DNA of 34,819 bases, from IMG/VR virus record IMGVR_UViG_2693429713_000015; one strand, given 5' to 3'. The translations under genes and the position numbers were made by a program. Origin of the DNA: a virus (taxonomy: Duplodnaviria > Heunggongvirae > Uroviricota > Caudoviricetes). Below the pieces are notes generated by a model, which worked only from the letters and a program-made list of their open reading frames with translations, searched no databases and had not been told where the DNA came from. Each line of letters opens with the position of its first letter. The first letter of the stretch is position 1. Shown here piece by piece: positions 1 to 8,162 of the stretch.

Positions 1-646
<646 letters not shown>

Positions 647-649
647 AGC

Positions 650-1286
<637 letters not shown>

Positions 1287-1287
1287 T

Positions 1288-1344
<57 letters not shown>

Positions 1345-1373
1345 CAGAACTCGCGCCAGCCTGATTGCAGATA

Positions 1374-3518: not shown

Positions 3519-3815
3519 TTACTCGTTCGTGTAAATCACGCCCAGTCGTGCAGCCAGACGTTCCAGTTTTTTCTGTTTGTGGAAGTCAATCAGCCGGTCC
3601 ATCCCCTGAAGGCGCAATTGCTCTGTCATGATTTCCACGTCTGCCAGCTCTGCCGCGAGGTCGCTTTCGCTGCCCTGTCCGTTCAGATTGCGGGCAGCAC
3701 TGGCCGCCAGTTCAGCGGCCTCTTCTGTCAGTTTCAGGGCCTGTGCGTCCGGCCCGAAACGCTGCAGGGCCAGACGGTAGAGGGCGGTGCGGGTGAGTAT
3801 GGTGTTCCGTGTCAT
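3519..3815 (-). CDS. MazG-like nucleotide pyrophosphohydrolase-fold protein (98 aa), tentative
   Basis: Contains KLTEEAAELAASA ... DLAAELADVEIMTEQL ... KQKKLERLAARLG, matching the EExxE / ExxD / KxxR arrangement of small MazG domains; eye-match only. Confidence 0.45.
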   Translation of the reverse strand: MTRNTILTRTALYRLALQRFGPDAQALKLTEEAAELAASAARNLNGQGSESDLAAELADVEIMTEQLRLQGMDRLIDFHKQKKLERLAARLGVIYTNE

Positions 3816-3824
3816 GCCGCGCCC

Positions 3825-4097
3825 TCAGTGCTTCCGGCTGACGGTGATGTGCAGGCCGCCTTCTGCAGTGGTTTCCATCCGGTACGGCACCTCATGCGCT
3901 GCCGTGTGGGTTAGTGTGTTCACCAGTACCTGCAGGGCAGCCGCCTTTCCGTTGGTCGCCACAATGGCCTGAGCGGTCATGCTGATTAGCGCCGTCAGGA
4001 CGTGCTTCACATCGGTGAGGTCGCGGCATTCACACTCGTTGACATAGTGTTCAACAAGGGTTCGGGTGCGCTGTCGTGCTTCCTGTGGGGTAATCAT
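3825..4097 (-). CDS. Hypothetical early protein (90 aa)
   Basis: ORF in the operon, overlapping the upstream gene by 4 nt; no recognisable motif. Confidence 0.45.
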   Translation of the reverse strand: MITPQEARQRTRTLVEHYVNECECRDLTDVKHVLTALISMTAQAIVATNGKAAALQVLVNTLTHTAAHEVPYRMETTAEGGLHITVSRKH

Positions 4098-4288
4098 TGC
4101 GAGTCCTCCCTGTCAGGGCGGGAGAATTCCATGACGGGCACGTCTGCCGAAAAATGCTGGCTGCAGTACGGGCAGACCAGGGTGACGCGTACCGCAGGGA
4201 TGTGGTATTTACCGGACATCACGGCGATGGCGCTGTGAAAACGCAGGGCTGTTATATCCCTCTCGCACTGAATACATTTAAATATCAT
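4094..4288 (-). CDS. Small Cys4 zinc-ribbon-like protein (64 aa)
   Basis: CxxC...CxxC (CIQCERD ... CPYCSQHF); GAGGAG RBS 9 nt upstream of ATG at 4288. Confidence 0.5.
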   Translation of the reverse strand: MIFKCIQCERDITALRFHSAIAVMSGKYHIPAVRVTLVCPYCSQHFSADVPVMEFSRPDREDSQ

Positions 4289-4385
4289 GATTTAATTCTC
4301 CTCTGTTTCCGGCGTGCAGAAGCCCGCGGCGCTGACGCCGGAATAAAAAAGAAAATGTTTTTATTAAATAATTAACGTGGTGTGT

Positions 4386-4916
4386 TTACTGCACATCCTG
4401 CTCAAAAGGAATTATTGAAAAATCCTCAATGTCGCTTTTAATGGAAATACCGGGAATATTTTTCACGGCCTCTTTTTCATTCAGGATAGCGTCTTTATTT
4501 ATTTCCTCTTTTACACGAATAAAGCGCTCAAGCCCCAGACGTCTCAGCAGTTCAATGACATTATCCGCCCCGCGAATGCTGACTGACGGCGGACGGTTTC
4601 GCCACTGCACCTCGCCGGTGGTGAGGTTAGCGAACTTCACCTTCCCGTTGCCGGTCAGTTCATCACGGTGCGCCTCACACCATGTCTGGATACCGGACTG
4701 CAGTTCGGCCATGCGTTTTTTCAGGCTCTCGGTGAGCGGGGCATAACGTGCAGTGATGTCGCCAATGGTGTCATTCATTTCTGTTTCAGCCCTGACCAGT
4801 TCACGTTGCGCGTCACCAAGCAGTCTGATTCCCTCAATGACCTCTTCGCGTGTCCCCGGCACCCAGAGTGCTGCTGCGGCTTTGATACGTTTTGCCCCTT
4901 TTGTACTTTTTGCCAT
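4386..4916 (-). CDS. gam: Gam-like host-nuclease inhibitor
   Basis: 176 aa; collinear with Mu Gam as recalled (AKRIKAAAALWVP...RLGLERFIRVKEEINKDAILNEK...IEDFSIIPFEQ). Confidence 0.9.
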   Translation of the reverse strand: MAKSTKGAKRIKAAAALWVPGTREEVIEGIRLLGDAQRELVRAETEMNDTIGDITARYAPLTESLKKRMAELQSGIQTWCEAHRDELTGNGKVKFANLTTGEVQWRNRPPSVSIRGADNVIELLRRLGLERFIRVKEEINKDAILNEKEAVKNIPGISIKSDIEDFSIIPFEQDVQ

Positions 4917-4943
4917 ATTTTATGACTCCTCCTGTTGTGCTGA

Positions 4944-5213
4944 TTACCACAAAGATTCCGGCCACACGACGCGACAGCCGTGCAGTTCGAAAACGCCCTG
5001 ACGGAAATGTCCCCTGTGGTCATGACCGGTATACAGATAACAGGCCTTTCCCTGCTCAAGCATGCGCATGCAATGCGCACTCCGGGAAACGCGGATGACA
5101 GGTTTGTTACCCCTGATGGTGATGCTTTGTACATCCGTGTTCGTCGCCTTAAGCGCCATAATGGCTGACTGCACTTTGCTGATTTGCTGGTTGATACCTG
5201 TGGTGGATTTCAT
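4944..5213 (-). CDS. Hypothetical Cys/His-rich protein (89 aa) in the kil position between B and gam
   Basis: AAGGGG RBS; motif HCMRMLEQGKACYLYTGHDHRGH...HGC; function unknown. Confidence 0.45.
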   Translation of the reverse strand: MKSTTGINQQISKVQSAIMALKATNTDVQSITIRGNKPVIRVSRSAHCMRMLEQGKACYLYTGHDHRGHFRQGVFELHGCRVVWPESLW

Positions 5214-5215
5214 TA

Positions 5216-6382
5216 TTAAACCCCTTTGACAACGTCAGCGTTGACCTGTGGAACCCCGATTTCAGCGGCCAGATTCATGGCGGCTATTACCAGGTTACTG
5301 ACGGCCAGCGGATACAGCAGGCTGACCATATTTTTACGATGACTTCCCGGATTGCTCAGGCGGGCACGTATGGCATCCACTGCGCTGGCGTCCATAATGT
5401 CCGTCAGTTGTTTACCGGCCCGTTGCAGTTTGAACGTCAGAAACTCTTCAAGGTTATTGTCCAGAGGCAGAAGTTCGACCACCTCACAGCGCTGAACGAC
5501 TTCACGGACTTCCATATTGCGTTCAGACAGTTTTGTCGCCAGTTCCGGCTGGCCAATCAGCACGATGGACAGCAGTTTTTTGAAACCGGACTCCAGCTCA
5601 AAAAAGCGTTTGAGGTGTTTCAGTGTCGGAATGGGCAGACTGTGGGCCTCCTCAATCACCAGAACGTGGCTGAACCCCGCCTGGCTGCTGTCTTTCAGGA
5701 CGCGATGCAACTGGCGAAAGCGGGCGTCCTGACTGCGTCTGATGCTTTCCAGTGGTGCGATGGTACTGATAATGGCTTCGGCAATCGCTGCTGCCTTCAG
5801 GGTTTTCCCTTTCACATCGTTGTCTTCCATAGCGATGATGTATGGCTCGATAACAATTACCGGCGCATTCTCGCGGTTGATACGTTCAGTCAGGTCGCGG
5901 CGCAGCGTGGATTTACCCGCACCGGACTCACCGATGACGGCCATAAACCCACCATGACGGGCTGTCTGGTACAACGCCTCACGCACGTAGCGAATATCCG
6001 GGGTGGTGAACACATCATCAGAACCCTGCATGGCTTCGTCGGCGAACGGGTCACGGAAAAGACCAAACGCTTTTTTGGTTGCTGGAAATAACACCTGTTT
6101 TTTGAGTAACATATTCTCTTCCTCACTGAGGCTCGTTTTATCTGTGGTACCCGCTGTACGGGGCGTGGCCGCGCCCTGTACAGCATCAAAACTCTTCGTT
6201 GTATCAATCCCCTGACTTTCCAGCCAGGACGCAAGACGCCGGCGCACTTCTCCGGGGCTGGTGCGGGGCCACGCGTTATGATTCACAATCTGGGCCAGCG
6301 TGGCCTCAGAAACATCGACAGCTCTCGCCACCACCGCCTGTGGAATACGGGCCTCTTTCAGTTGCTGCTTCAGTACCAGCAT
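5216..6382 (-). CDS. DNA transposition ATPase B (MuB-like, AAA+)
   Basis: Walker A GESGAGKST; N-terminal HTH-like segment; immediately downstream of the transposase; preferred start is ATG at 6382 with GAGGAGGG RBS (the ORF track's longer form starts at a GTG). Confidence 0.85.
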   Translation of the reverse strand: MLVLKQQLKEARIPQAVVARAVDVSEATLAQIVNHNAWPRTSPGEVRRRLASWLESQGIDTTKSFDAVQGAATPRTAGTTDKTSLSEEENMLLKKQVLFPATKKAFGLFRDPFADEAMQGSDDVFTTPDIRYVREALYQTARHGGFMAVIGESGAGKSTLRRDLTERINRENAPVIVIEPYIIAMEDNDVKGKTLKAAAIAEAIISTIAPLESIRRSQDARFRQLHRVLKDSSQAGFSHVLVIEEAHSLPIPTLKHLKRFFELESGFKKLLSIVLIGQPELATKLSERNMEVREVVQRCEVVELLPLDNNLEEFLTFKLQRAGKQLTDIMDASAVDAIRARLSNPGSHRKNMVSLLYPLAVSNLVIAAMNLAAEIGVPQVNADVVKGV

Positions 6383-6392
6383 GTTTCCCTCC

Positions 6393-8162
6393 TCAGTTGC
6401 CGTTAACAATGCTGATAACACTGCTGCGGGCCGGTGTGGTCAGCGTGGCCATGACTTCATCCAGTGCGGCTTCCGGTACGCCGTCCGGGTACTGTGCCGT
6501 TAACTGGCGGTAATGTTCCGGCGTCCAGGTAAGGCCGTCGGCGCTGAACTTATCGCGCAGGGCTTTCGCGGCCTCCACATGAGTCATGGGACGTTGTTCA
6601 GTGCGCGGCCCGCGTACGTCAGAGGCCTGACCACGCTTCGGCATATAGGCCGGAAGTGTGGTGTCGTCGATATGTTTATACGGGTCAAGCCGCCCGCCGA
6701 ACGGCAGCGCCTTCGCCTTGCGTGCGGCGGCTGCATCTGCGGCGTTGTCTGTACCGGTAACCAGCGCTTCGGTTTCTTTTGCCGCCATCTGTGCCGGGGT
6801 TTCCGGCAGGGCTTTGTAACTTTCGCCAAATACCGCCGCGCCTTCAGCAAAGCCAAACTCGTTCTTTCTGACCTCTTCGACCAGGAAGAACGTCTCGTGG
6901 CCGTCCTCACCGGTCAGAACCACCTGTGCCACATCGCTGCGCCATGGGTTACGGGTAATCATCAGTTTTTCACCAACCAGTACGCCCGGTACCGTTGATA
7001 CGTCAAATTCAGTGCCCCGGAACGAGACACGAAGTTTTGGCGTGACTTTGCGGAGTTCTGGTGCCGCCACAGCCAGTTCACGACATACCTCAACGGAAGG
7101 CGCTTTTTTCAGCTGCTCAGCAGTAATCTTCAGCCAGATATCCGTGCGGGTTTTACCGTGGCGGCTGTGAACAGCCGTGGCGTTAAAGTGGCTGCGCCAT
7201 TTCGCGGCCAGCGCGTTGAGTTCTTCCAGACTGTGAACCGGCCGGAACTTCAGACCCGGCTCCAGCTTGCGTTCGATAATGTCACGCGCCTTTTCCACCT
7301 GTCCGGTGGCGCGGGCGTTATGCGGCTTGTGCGCTATCAGGTCGATGCCCAGTGAGCGGCACATGTTTTTCGTCATACCCGCGGTGTTTGCCGAGCCGGG
7401 GTCGAGATAGAGTATTTTCGGCACGCCGTGCAGCACGTCTGCGCCGCCACGCTCCTGCATGGCGTTGATAAGCACAGAACACAGGTTCTCACCTGATTCC
7501 GCGCCCGTCACATACTCAACGTAAATCCAGCCGCTGGCATGGTCGGTAATCTCGTAACTCCACACGCGGTCACTGGCGATACGGGCAAGGTTAGCGGGCT
7601 TGTTCTTGTAGAACTTCGCGCTGTCCATCACCTGCAGCCCTTTATGTCCATTGCTCAGGTAGTAAAGCGTGCAGAGTGAGGCGTCAATCTGCCAGACATG
7701 ATTGGGATGCAGACTGGCCACTTCGGTATGTGGTGCAGGGGCATCCAGTTGTTCCGGGTGCAGGCCATAGTTACGCAGAGCACGGCTGATGGCATCTTCA
7801 GACAACGGGAAAAACTCACTGGTGGTTTCATCTGTTCTGCCTGCGGTGATAAAGCCGTTAGCCCGCAGGGTTTCCACTGCATCTGCGATGGAATAGAGAC
7901 GCTTACCGTTCTTGCGGGTGGCCTCACGCAGTGTGGCAGATATCAGCGCGGCTTCGTCGCGGGTCAGGGCGCTGCGCCCGGCATCGGCGCGTTTTTTGCG
8001 TTTATCAGTCACAGATACCTCCTTCAGCCTGCGCAGCAGAGTGGCGCGGGACATGCCAAGTTCAGCACAGGCAGCGTCGTATATTGCACCGCGTTTACCA
8101 TGCCCCGCGTCACGTGCCGCGCGGGCTGTTTCAACCAGTTTTTCAGTCAGTGCCGGGGTCAT
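6393..8162 (-). CDS. Mu-type DDE transposase A
   Basis: 589 aa; N-terminal HTH region followed by an integrase-core-like central domain; position between ner-like genes and B. Confidence 0.9.
   Translation of the reverse strand: MTPALTEKLVETARAARDAGHGKRGAIYDAACAELGMSRATLLRRLKEVSVTDKRKKRADAGRSALTRDEAALISATLREATRKNGKRLYSIADAVETLRANGFITAGRTDETTSEFFPLSEDAISRALRNYGLHPEQLDAPAPHTEVASLHPNHVWQIDASLCTLYYLSNGHKGLQVMDSAKFYKNKPANLARIASDRVWSYEITDHASGWIYVEYVTGAESGENLCSVLINAMQERGGADVLHGVPKILYLDPGSANTAGMTKNMCRSLGIDLIAHKPHNARATGQVEKARDIIERKLEPGLKFRPVHSLEELNALAAKWRSHFNATAVHSRHGKTRTDIWLKITAEQLKKAPSVEVCRELAVAAPELRKVTPKLRVSFRGTEFDVSTVPGVLVGEKLMITRNPWRSDVAQVVLTGEDGHETFFLVEEVRKNEFGFAEGAAVFGESYKALPETPAQMAAKETEALVTGTDNAADAAAARKAKALPFGGRLDPYKHIDDTTLPAYMPKRGQASDVRGPRTEQRPMTHVEAAKALRDKFSADGLTWTPEHYRQLTAQYPDGVPEAALDEVMATLTTPARSSVISIVNGN

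What the first reader, a model, noticed from the sequence alone, without database searches (positions are those of the whole stretch)
4944..5213. Cys/His-rich 89-aa protein in the kil position between B and gam
The product contains HCMRMLEQGKACYLYTGHDHRGH...HGC, a dense cluster of potential metal ligands, in the slot where Mu encodes the host-killing Kil function.
Basis: inference. Interest (0 to 1): 0.35.

Follow-up and report, generated by a model that had tools for sequence, protein, structure and literature searches.

The report
Divergent Mu Kil homologue after B
The 89-residue gene just after the transposition gene B of this Mu-like E. coli prophage is a real, common gene and a distant relative of phage Mu's host-killing protein Kil, but its cluster of cysteines and histidines is not conserved and is probably not a metal site.

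Summary
The ORF at 4944-5213 (minus strand, 89 aa) is real. It lies between B and gam in the early operon of a BcepMu-like transposable prophage that is 98.5% identical to Escherichia phage PhiKM. It evolves under purifying selection and its DNA is present in 621 of 5,426 complete E. coli genomes.

It belongs to an uncharacterised family: phrog_2041, 85 clusters among 1.84 billion proteins, named 'HI_1482 family protein' in one RefSeq record. Four lines of evidence tie that family to Mu Kil.
- Profile-profile comparison gives 95% probability (E 3e-8), while shuffled controls stay at or below 1.5%.
- HMM searches hit each other's family and nothing else among 5,360 ORFs.
- Confident AlphaFold models of both proteins have the same order of helices and strands.
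- Both models have the same best structural match among viral proteins.

Family members sit directly after B in 35 of 37 genome loci. This includes prophages whose A and B are 52-56% identical to Mu's.

The metal-ligand idea fails on conservation. No histidine is kept in more than 11 of 66 family members. The only residue shared with Kil is C80, in the motif G-C-x-V-x-W.

The gene is most likely a Kil-type host-toxic early protein. That function is inferred, not shown. It is a new member of a known kind, of modest interest.

The parts
4944..5213 (-). CDS of the 89-aa protein, a member of phrog_2041 (named 'HI_1482 family protein' in one RefSeq record) and a remote homologue of Mu Kil. Predicted fold: helix 5-23, strands 28-32 and 39-42, helix 46-53, then a three-stranded meander 58-65, 68-77, 80-87.
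   Evidence: ORF. phrog_2041 1e-36 and phrog_6381 'Kil' 0.023. hhalign against Kil profiles 95%. AlphaFold2 pLDDT 90.7. pN/pS 0.19/0.80.
4962..4979 (-). Codons for residues 79-84, G-C-R-V-V-W. This is the C-terminal motif shared with the Kil family: C80 corresponds to Kil C70 and W84 to Kil W74.
   Evidence: W84 is invariant (66/66) and C80 is present in 55/66 family members. Kil C70 is invariant (28/28) and W74 nearly so. hhalign aligns the two motifs.
5221..5226 (-). Shine-Dalgarno-like AAGGGG, 7 nt upstream of the ATG and inside the 3' end of B. The B stop codon (TAA, 5216-5218) is 2 nt from the ATG, which suggests translational coupling.
   Evidence: Read directly from the sequence. Coupling is an inference.
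5216..6421 (-). B-type AAA+ transposition ATPase, the upstream neighbour that defines the slot. RefSeq and PhiKM annotate a shorter start, about 389 aa.
   Evidence: AAA_22 3.8e-20. phrog_296 'DNA transposition protein' 1.5e-93. A B homologue lies directly upstream of the family gene in 35 of 37 genome loci.
4386..4916 (-). Gam host-nuclease inhibitor, the downstream neighbour. Its GGAGGAG ribosome-binding site is at 4926-4932, in the 27-nt spacer after the ORF's stop.
   Evidence: PF07352 1.9e-40. phrog_491 6.7e-73. Sequence.
6393..8162 (-). DDE (rve) transposase A of the prophage, at the head of the A-B-ORF89-gam gene string.
   Evidence: rve 9.8e-9. phrog_310 3.7e-147.

Best explanation
The ORF is a genuine early-operon gene of a BcepMu-like transposable prophage. 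It is translated right after B, probably by coupling. It encodes a small single-domain alpha/beta protein with the order helix-strand-strand-helix-strand-strand-strand. It belongs to a family of about 90-110-residue proteins (phrog_2041; 'HI_1482 family protein' in RefSeq). That family is a divergent sister of the phage Mu Kil family (Pfam PF26843) and fills the same post-B slot in many transposable phages.

By homology and position, it most likely does what Mu Kil does. After induction it would be made with A and B from the early promoter. It would then bind a host protein involved in cell growth or shape and stop the host from growing normally. Mu kil expression kills E. coli and makes the cells spherical.

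The functionally constrained residues are the hydrophobic core, P38, and the C-terminal strand G-C80-x-V-x-W84.

Shown here: the gene is real, it belongs to the family, it is remotely homologous to Kil, the fold is shared, and the position is conserved. Inferred: toxicity, the host target and the timing of expression.
For: - Gene reality.
- Family: phrog_2041 1e-36 and 85 clusters.
- Weak reciprocal signals at the single-sequence level. The ORF matches phrog_6381 'Kil' at E 0.023. Mu Kil matches phrog_2041 at E 0.2. BLASTP aligns HGCRVVW with NGCQIIW.
- Profile-profile comparison. Against close Mu Kil relatives it gives 77.6%. Against diverse Kil alignments it gives 95.1% (E 3.2e-8, 79 columns) and 94.9% (E 4.8e-8, 80 columns). 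All Kil sequences used carry PF26843.
- Controls: the reversed alignment and 30 column shuffles score at most 14.4, against 46.1 for the real comparison.
- HMM cross-search of 5,360 six-frame ORFs. The family HMM's only outside hits are Kil proteins, including Mu Kil at 1.2e-3. The Kil HMM's only outside hits are family members, including the window ORF at 6.6e-3. Each locus has a single family hit (two fragments in the apparently frameshifted L054).
- Structure. The ORF89 model has pLDDT 90.7 and the Mu Kil model 96.3. Both have the same element order, in register with the hhalign alignment. The best BFVD match of both is A0A8S5L8A9: E 8.1e-9 with TM 0.86 for ORF89, and E 1.9e-3 with TM 0.61 for Mu Kil.
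- Position. A B homologue lies directly upstream on the same strand in 35 of 37 Enterobacterales loci. Nine of these, in Photorhabdus and Xenorhabdus, have A and B 52-56% identical to Mu's. The same holds in metagenomic loci.
- Mu kil phenotype (host killing, spherical cells): PMC3961180, citing Waggoner et al. 1989.
Against: - The protein does not reach family-level significance against any Kil model. The best is phrog_6381 at E 0.023, and its relatives carry no precomputed PF26843 hit.
- Homology therefore rests on profile methods with shallow Kil alignments (template Neff 2.6-3.9).
- Pairwise identity to Mu Kil in the hhalign alignment is only about 13%. Function may have diverged at that distance.
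- No toxicity data exist for any member of this family, and the molecular target of Mu Kil itself is unknown. The mechanism is an extrapolation.
- The Mu Kil model did not appear among the ORF89 model's own BFVD matches. The structural link is indirect, through one shared third protein.
Confidence: 0.6

Rival explanations
1. It is a small metalloprotein or redox-sensitive protein. C48, C58, H78 and C80 (possibly also H47, H64, H66, H69) would bind zinc or another metal, and the metal would be essential for its function.
For: - Eight Cys/His lie within 34 residues (permutation P about 0.004).
- Within the closest enterobacterial clade, C48, H64, H78 and C80 are invariant.
- By the predicted topology, C48 (helix 2), C58 (start of strand 3), H78 and C80 (the strand 4-5 turn) could lie at the same end of the sheet.
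Against: - Across the family no His is kept in more than 11 of 66 members, and C58 in only 6 of 66.
- C48 and C80 are each replaced by aliphatic residues in several members. Two members have no Cys at all.
- C48 and C80 do not co-vary significantly (Fisher P 0.13).
- PhiKM carries H69Y at 98.9% identity.
- The homologous Kil family has a single invariant Cys.
- There is no CxxC or CxxH motif.
- No zinc-finger or zinc-ribbon match appears in Pfam, in PDB sequences or in the fold searches.
- H64 lies at the opposite end of the sheet from H78 and C80.
Confidence: 0.08
2. It has the Kil fold but not Kil's job. It would be an accessory early protein, such as a modulator of B or of transposition target choice, or an inhibitor of a host defence or repair factor. 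It would not be intrinsically toxic.
For: - Its linkage and probable translational coupling to B are family-wide. That could equally reflect a functional partnership with B.
- Divergence from Kil is extreme, about 13% identity.
- Many genes of the 'semi-essential' early region of Mu have unknown or host-modulating roles (PMC3820752).
- The downstream partners, Gam or DUF3164, deal with DNA ends.
Against: - The only characterised homologue is a killing function that Mu does not need for transposition. This is established knowledge; Waggoner 1989 as cited in PMC3961180.
- The model has no DNA-binding or enzymatic signature.
- The two families exclude each other in the same slot. That suggests functional equivalence.
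Confidence: 0.28
3. It is not a functional gene: a chance ORF, or a decaying remnant in a prophage.
For: No Pfam or NCBIfam model matches it. Some database copies are truncated or frameshifted, for example P0003, P0004 and P0014.
Against: - Purifying selection: pN 0.19 against pS 0.80.
- A conserved family with a confident predicted fold.
- A ribosome-binding site and tight operon packing.
- Present in an isolated phage, PhiKM.
- Identical in hundreds of E. coli genomes.
Confidence: 0.01

Closest known systems
Phage Mu Kil (gp5, Mup05; Pfam PF26843; phrog_2743, phrog_6381, phrog_2679)
   Same: - It is the first or nearly first gene after B in the early operon of a transposable phage.
- It is a small protein of 74-124 aa.
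- The predicted helix-strand-strand-helix-three-strand fold is the same.
- The conserved Leu in helix 1, the Pro before strand 2, and the C-terminal G-C-x-[VI]-x-W strand are shared.
- Profile-profile probability is 95%.
   Different: - Sequence identity is about 13%.
- The window ORF does not reach significance against the Kil family models tested (PHROGs), and its close relatives carry no precomputed PF26843 hit.
- It has a longer helix 2 and a longer strand 3-4 region, carrying the extra Cys48 and the histidines.
- It has a short C-terminal extension (SESLH/PESLW) that Mu Kil lacks.
- Toxicity is untested.
phrog_2041 / 'HI_1482 family protein' (RefSeq WP_000843445.1)
   Same: This is the family the ORF belongs to. 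It matches phrog_2041 at E 1e-36 over the whole length. RefSeq gives this name to the identical gene.
   Different: Nothing differs; it is a typical member. The family has no assigned function. None of the sources seen here links it to Kil: PHROGs lists it as 'unknown function', and GenBank and RefSeq mostly call it 'hypothetical protein'.
Lambda Kil and Rac KilR (small prophage-encoded division inhibitors)
   Same: They share a concept: a small early prophage protein that is toxic to the host and alters cell division or shape.
   Different: They share only the name. According to PMC3961180 the three kil products have no significant similarity. Lambda Kil acts on FtsZ through ZipA and causes filaments, whereas Mu kil gives spheres. 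No comparison was run here.
Zinc-ribbon or zinc-finger small phage proteins
   Same: It is rich in Cys and His over a short stretch.
   Different: It has no paired CxxC or CxxH knuckles, no conserved ligand set and no fold match. By contrast, the neighbouring 64-aa ORF at 4094-4288 does have CxxC-(29)-CxxC.

Membership tests
Mu Kil family (Pfam PF26843; phrog_2743/6381/2679) | Significant match of the protein to a family model | tested here: not met
   The best match is phrog_6381 at E 0.023. The close relatives P0001-P0020 carry no precomputed PF26843 hit, whereas every Kil relative does. The local Pfam copy lacks PF26843. The Kil HMM built here scores the ORF at E 6.6e-3 among 5,360 ORFs.
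Mu Kil family (Pfam PF26843; phrog_2743/6381/2679) | Homology at profile-profile level (superfamily relationship) | tested here: met
   hhalign gives 95.1% and 94.9%, E 3-5e-8, over 79-80 columns. Controls give at most 1.5%.
Mu Kil family (Pfam PF26843; phrog_2743/6381/2679) | Conserved C-terminal G-C-x-[VI]-x-W strand, plus the Leu of helix 1 and the Pro before strand 2 | tested here: met
   The ORF has L21, P38 and G79-C80-R-V-V-W84. Kil has L16, P33 and G-C70-x-[VI]-x-W74, all invariant or nearly so.
Mu Kil family (Pfam PF26843; phrog_2743/6381/2679) | Same fold | tested here: met
   AlphaFold2 models: ORF89 is H5-23, E28-32, E39-42, H46-53, E58-65, E68-77, E80-87. Mu Kil is H2-18, E22-27, E34-38, H42-45, E49-55, E58-67, E70-74. 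Both have the same best BFVD match. No direct superposition was possible.
Mu Kil family (Pfam PF26843; phrog_2743/6381/2679) | Location just downstream of B in the early operon of a transposable phage | tested here: met
   In the window the ATG is 2 nt after the stop of B. A B homologue lies directly upstream in 35 of 37 genome loci and in further loci.
Mu Kil family (Pfam PF26843; phrog_2743/6381/2679) | Expression kills the host and changes cell shape | not testable with these tools
   This needs inducible expression and microscopy. The Mu phenotype is taken from PMC3961180, citing Waggoner 1989.
phrog_2041 / 'HI_1482 family protein' | Full-length significant match to the family model or name | tested here: met
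   phrog_2041 at E 1e-36, residues 3-89 against profile positions 9-101 of 101. RefSeq names the identical gene 'HI_1482 family protein'. The link to the Haemophilus gene HI_1482 itself was not verified.
Structural zinc-binding domain (zinc ribbon or finger) | A set of three or four Cys/His ligands conserved across homologues | tested here: not met
   H47 8/66, H64 11/66, H66 5/66, H69 8/66, H78 10/66, C58 6/66, C48 49/66, C80 55/66. Two members lack Cys altogether. The Kil family has one invariant Cys.
Structural zinc-binding domain (zinc ribbon or finger) | Knuckle motifs (CxxC or CxxH) or similarity to a zinc-binding fold | tested here: not met
   The sequence has no CxxC or CxxH. No zinc-finger families appear in Pfam. 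The best PDB fold matches are NuoC-like complex I subunits at E 7.7e-3 or worse and TM about 0.5.
Structural zinc-binding domain (zinc ribbon or finger) | Metal actually bound | not testable with these tools
   This needs metal analysis of purified protein.

The most novel reading that the evidence does not exclude
The phrog_2041/'HI_1482' family and Mu Kil form one ancient, fast-evolving 'post-B killer' superfamily found throughout transposable phages. In addition, the enterobacterial clade that includes this gene would have acquired a lineage-specific Cys/His site. C48, H64, H78 and C80 are invariant in that clade. The site would bind a metal or sense redox state and so tune the protein's toxicity or its choice of host target.
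Probability: 0.08. Interest if true: 0.5.

Novelty: new member of a known kind. Interest (0 to 1): 0.27.

Why it matters
Mu Kil has been known since 1989, but none of the papers found here reports a molecular target for it. In the sources examined, the family studied here carries no function and no link to Kil. It is in about 11% of complete E. coli genomes, including ABU 83972.

Joining the two families gives a functional hypothesis to a very common prophage 'hypothetical protein'. It also shows that the post-B slot of transposable phages holds one divergent protein superfamily. It supplies a diverse alignment in which only about five positions are conserved (Leu, Pro, G-C-x-V-x-W). That alignment could guide mutagenesis and the search for Kil's target.

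The result also removes a misleading lead, the metal cluster. The practical consequence is modest: this is an annotation-level advance, not a new mechanism.

Tried and rejected
- Pfam and NCBIfam scans of the ORF found nothing. A Pfam scan of all 66 family members gave only scattered chance hits. The local Pfam copy lacks PF26843, so Mu Kil also gave nothing.
- Sequence searches of the PDB with both family profiles found nothing below E 0.29. There is no solved structure for either family.
- Foldseek against the PDB gave only weak matches to NuoC-like complex I subunits (E 7.7e-3 or worse, TM about 0.5). I judged these uninformative.
- tblastn of the ORF and of two distant members against 50,697 phage records found only PhiKM, KP12 and Phi06_2974 B. 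The family is known mainly from prophages.
- The search for related loci with the full family alignment failed because no stretch was conserved enough. A narrower alignment worked.
- I considered a C48-C80 disulfide or ligand pair.
- Literature searches for a Mu Kil mechanism, for BcepMu with kil, and for HI_1482 found only the 1989 phenotype as summarised in PMC3961180.
- I tried to find the Haemophilus HI_1482 sequence among family members. The AT-rich-looking members turned out to be from Gilliamella, so the origin of the RefSeq name stays unverified.

Full report
**What is there.** The window carries a BcepMu-like (genus Bcepmuvirus) transposable prophage of E. coli. The region 4300-6500 is 98.5% identical to Escherichia phage PhiKM. 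On the minus strand the early operon reads as follows:
- a DUF3102 protein;
- a small ORF;
- transposase A, 6393-8162 (rve; phrog_310 3.7e-147);
- B, 5216-6421 (AAA_22; phrog_296 1.5e-93);
- the 89-aa ORF, 4944-5213;
- Gam, 4386-4916 (PF07352 1.9e-40);
- several small ORFs, a DUF2786 protein, GemA and Mor.

Its ATG lies 2 nt after the TAA stop of B, with an AAGGGG element 7 nt upstream. Its own stop is followed 27 nt later by the gam start, which has a GGAGGAG site. The arrangement suggests one tightly packed, probably translationally coupled transcription unit.

**It is a real gene.**
- Against the 69%-identical orthologue in Klebsiella phage KP12, the non-synonymous proportion is 0.19. The synonymous proportion is 0.80, which is saturated.
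- An exhaustive HMMER search of 1.84 billion representative proteins found 85 clusters at E below 1e-3. Nearly all are 85-120 residues long.
- The DNA occurs in 621 of 5,426 complete E. coli genomes, always on the chromosome, in up to three copies.
- An AlphaFold2 model built on a 66-sequence alignment is confident, with pLDDT 90.7 and pTM 0.80.

**The metal-ligand idea.** The protein has 3 Cys and 5 His, all within residues 47-80. Given eight such residues in 89, that clustering has a permutation P of about 0.004. The overall content is only mildly unusual, with P about 0.06. Conservation argues against a metal site. Among 66 diverse family members the residues are kept as follows:

| Residue | Kept in |
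|---|---|
| H47 | 8/66 |
| H64 | 11/66 |
| H66 | 5/66 |
| H69 | 8/66 |
| H78 | 10/66 |
| C58 | 6/66 |
| C48 | 49/66 |
| C80 | 55/66 |
| W84 | 66/66 |

- C48 and C80 are each replaced by Leu, Val, Thr or Ile in several members, and two members have no Cys at all.
- Their co-occurrence is not significant (Fisher P 0.13).
- The PhiKM orthologue, 98.9% identical, already has H69Y.
- There is no CxxC or CxxH knuckle.
- No zinc-finger family or fold turned up in Pfam, in PDB sequences or in Foldseek.
- Within the closest enterobacterial clade, C48, H64, H78 and C80 are invariant. A lineage-specific site therefore cannot be excluded. However, in the model H64 sits at the opposite end of the sheet from H78 and C80.

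**What it is related to.** Pfam and NCBIfam give nothing. PHROGs places it in phrog_2041 (unknown function) at 1e-36. It also gives a weak full-length hit to phrog_6381, 'Kil protein for bacterial septation inhibition', at E 0.023. Reciprocally, Mu Kil (74 aa, from NC_000929) matches phrog_2041 at E 0.2. BLASTP aligns HGCRVVW with NGCQIIW. I tested this lead in four ways.

1. Profile-profile comparison.
   - The 66-member family alignment against nine close Mu Kil relatives gave 77.6% probability.
   - Against a diverse Kil set (Mu, Klebsiella Kp4866-3, Vibrio 1.028.O, Vibrio martha, Shewanella MuM16-2) it gave 95.1%, E 3.2e-8, 79 columns.
   - Against 28 Kil-family proteins that all carry Pfam PF26843 it gave 94.9%, E 4.8e-8, 80 columns.
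   - A reversed Kil alignment and 30 column-shuffled versions scored at most 14.4 (1.5% or less), against 46.1 for the real comparison.
2. HMM cross-search of 5,360 six-frame ORFs from all loci fetched.
   - The family HMM's only hits outside its own family were Kil proteins: Shewanella 1.9e-4, Klebsiella 9.4e-4, Mu Kil 1.2e-3.
   - The Kil HMM's only outside hits were family members, including the window ORF at 6.6e-3.
   - No locus had a member of both families.
3. Structure.
   - An independent AlphaFold2 model of Mu Kil (pLDDT 96.3) has elements H2-18, E22-27, E34-38, H42-45, E49-55, E58-67, E70-74.
   - The ORF89 model has H5-23, E28-32, E39-42, H46-53, E58-65, E68-77, E80-87.
   - The order is the same and is in register with the hhalign alignment: P38 with P33, C80 with C70.
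   - In BFVD, the best match of both models is the same uncharacterised Myoviridae protein, A0A8S5L8A9. For ORF89 the match has E 8.1e-9 and TM 0.86. For Mu Kil it has E 1.9e-3 and TM 0.61.
4. Position.
   - In a scan of 185,579 species genomes, 37 Enterobacterales loci encode a family member.
   - In 35 of them a B homologue ends just upstream on the same strand.
   - In nine Photorhabdus and Xenorhabdus loci, A and B are 52-56% identical to Mu A and B. There the gene in the kil slot is a member of this family, not a PF26843 Kil.
   - Metagenomic and other loci show the same pattern, with zero to three small ORFs in between.
   - The downstream neighbour varies. It is Gam here, in PhiKM and in Dickeya. 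It is DUF3164 in KP12 and in 36 of the 37 genome loci. So 'after B' is the conserved feature, not 'before gam'.

**Shared constrained positions.** The two families share few constrained positions: a Leu in helix 1 (L21/L16), the Pro before strand 2 (P38/P33), and the last strand, G-C-x-[VI]-x-W (C80/C70, W84/W74). In the Kil family C70 is the only invariant Cys or His. C80 therefore matters because it belongs to the Kil signature strand, not because it is a metal ligand.

**How it most likely works (inferred).** After induction the early promoter transcribes A, B and this gene together. The small alpha/beta protein then acts as Mu Kil does. Mu kil expression kills E. coli independently of phage replication and turns rods into spheres. 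This is reported in PMC3961180, citing Waggoner et al. 1989, which reads it as inhibition of cell elongation. Database names for Mu Kil instead say 'septation inhibition'. No target was found in the literature searched, so the most specific statement I can make is that the protein binds and inhibits a host growth or shape factor through its conserved C-terminal strand. I put the superfamily relationship at about 0.85. I put Kil-like toxicity, given that relationship, at about 0.6-0.7.

**Comparison with what is known, and novelty.** The gene is a typical member of an already catalogued but uncharacterised family. That family is phrog_2041, and RefSeq calls the identical protein WP_000843445.1 'HI_1482 family protein'. 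Most records call it 'hypothetical protein'. It fails direct membership of the Kil family as PHROGs defines it, and its close relatives carry no precomputed PF26843 hit. It meets every superfamily-level test I could run. None of the sources I saw records a link between the two families. I therefore classify it as a new, divergent member of a known kind. It is unrelated, other than in name and concept, to lambda Kil and Rac KilR, according to PMC3961180. That comparison was not run here.

**Limits.**
- No experiment supports toxicity for any member of this family.
- The Kil alignments are shallow.
- I could not confirm the origin of the 'HI_1482' name.

Noticed in passing
window 4094-4288 (-): This 64-aa ORF, MIFKCIQCERD...LVCPYCSQHF, has a CxxC-(29)-CxxC pattern typical of a zinc ribbon. 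It matches phrog_3401 at 1.6e-40 and gives weak hits to zinc-ribbon Pfam families. It is a much better metal-binding candidate in this early region than the 89-aa ORF. PhiKM's annotation calls an ORF on the opposite strand here, whereas RefSeq annotates this one (WP_000576352.1).
   Followed up: partly
L044-L051 and L053 (Photorhabdus and Xenorhabdus genome loci), about 3950-4230: These are Mu-like prophages whose A and B proteins are 52-56% identical to Mu A and B. In the kil slot they carry a member of the phrog_2041 family instead of a PF26843 Kil. The two divergent families appear to be exchanged at one position while the flanking genes stay conserved.
   Followed up: partly
window 4917-4943, and L013 2771-2787: A mosaic junction lies right after the ORF. 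Gam follows it in the window, in PhiKM and in Dickeya loci. A DUF3164 protein follows it in KP12 and in 36 of 37 genome loci. Nucleotide similarity to KP12 (88.5%) also stops inside the ORF, at about window 5137.
   Followed up: partly
E. coli genomes; L017: The ORF's DNA is present at 90% identity or more in 621 of 5,426 complete E. coli genomes (about 11%). It is always chromosomal, with up to 3 copies per genome. Carriers include ABU 83972 and the probiotic strain M-17. One RefSeq record names it 'HI_1482 family protein' and the other nine records listed call it 'hypothetical protein'.
   Followed up: partly
window 3519-3815 (-): A 98-aa MazG-like nucleoside triphosphate pyrophosphohydrolase (phrog_2245 2.8e-34) lies in the early region.
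   Followed up: no
window 1-1370: The first roughly 1.2 kb look like host genes rather than phage genes: a 195-aa Cys-rich ORF at 1-588 and a 120-aa fragment at 650-1012. The Mor-like gene at 1374-1763 is the last early gene, so the prophage end should lie near 1250-1370. The junction was not mapped.
   Followed up: no
window 5216-6421 (-): The longest ORF for B starts at a GTG that overlaps the end of A by 29 nt. PhiKM and RefSeq annotate a shorter B, 388-389 aa, named 'Eha protein' and 'ExeA family protein'. Its start codon is therefore uncertain.
   Followed up: no
Mu Kil annotation (L002 4315-4539): RefSeq and PHROGs name Mu Kil 'Kil protein for bacterial septation inhibition'. The phenotype as summarised in PMC3961180 is spherical cells, which that paper interprets as inhibition of elongation. 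The database name may overstate or mis-state what is known.
   Followed up: no
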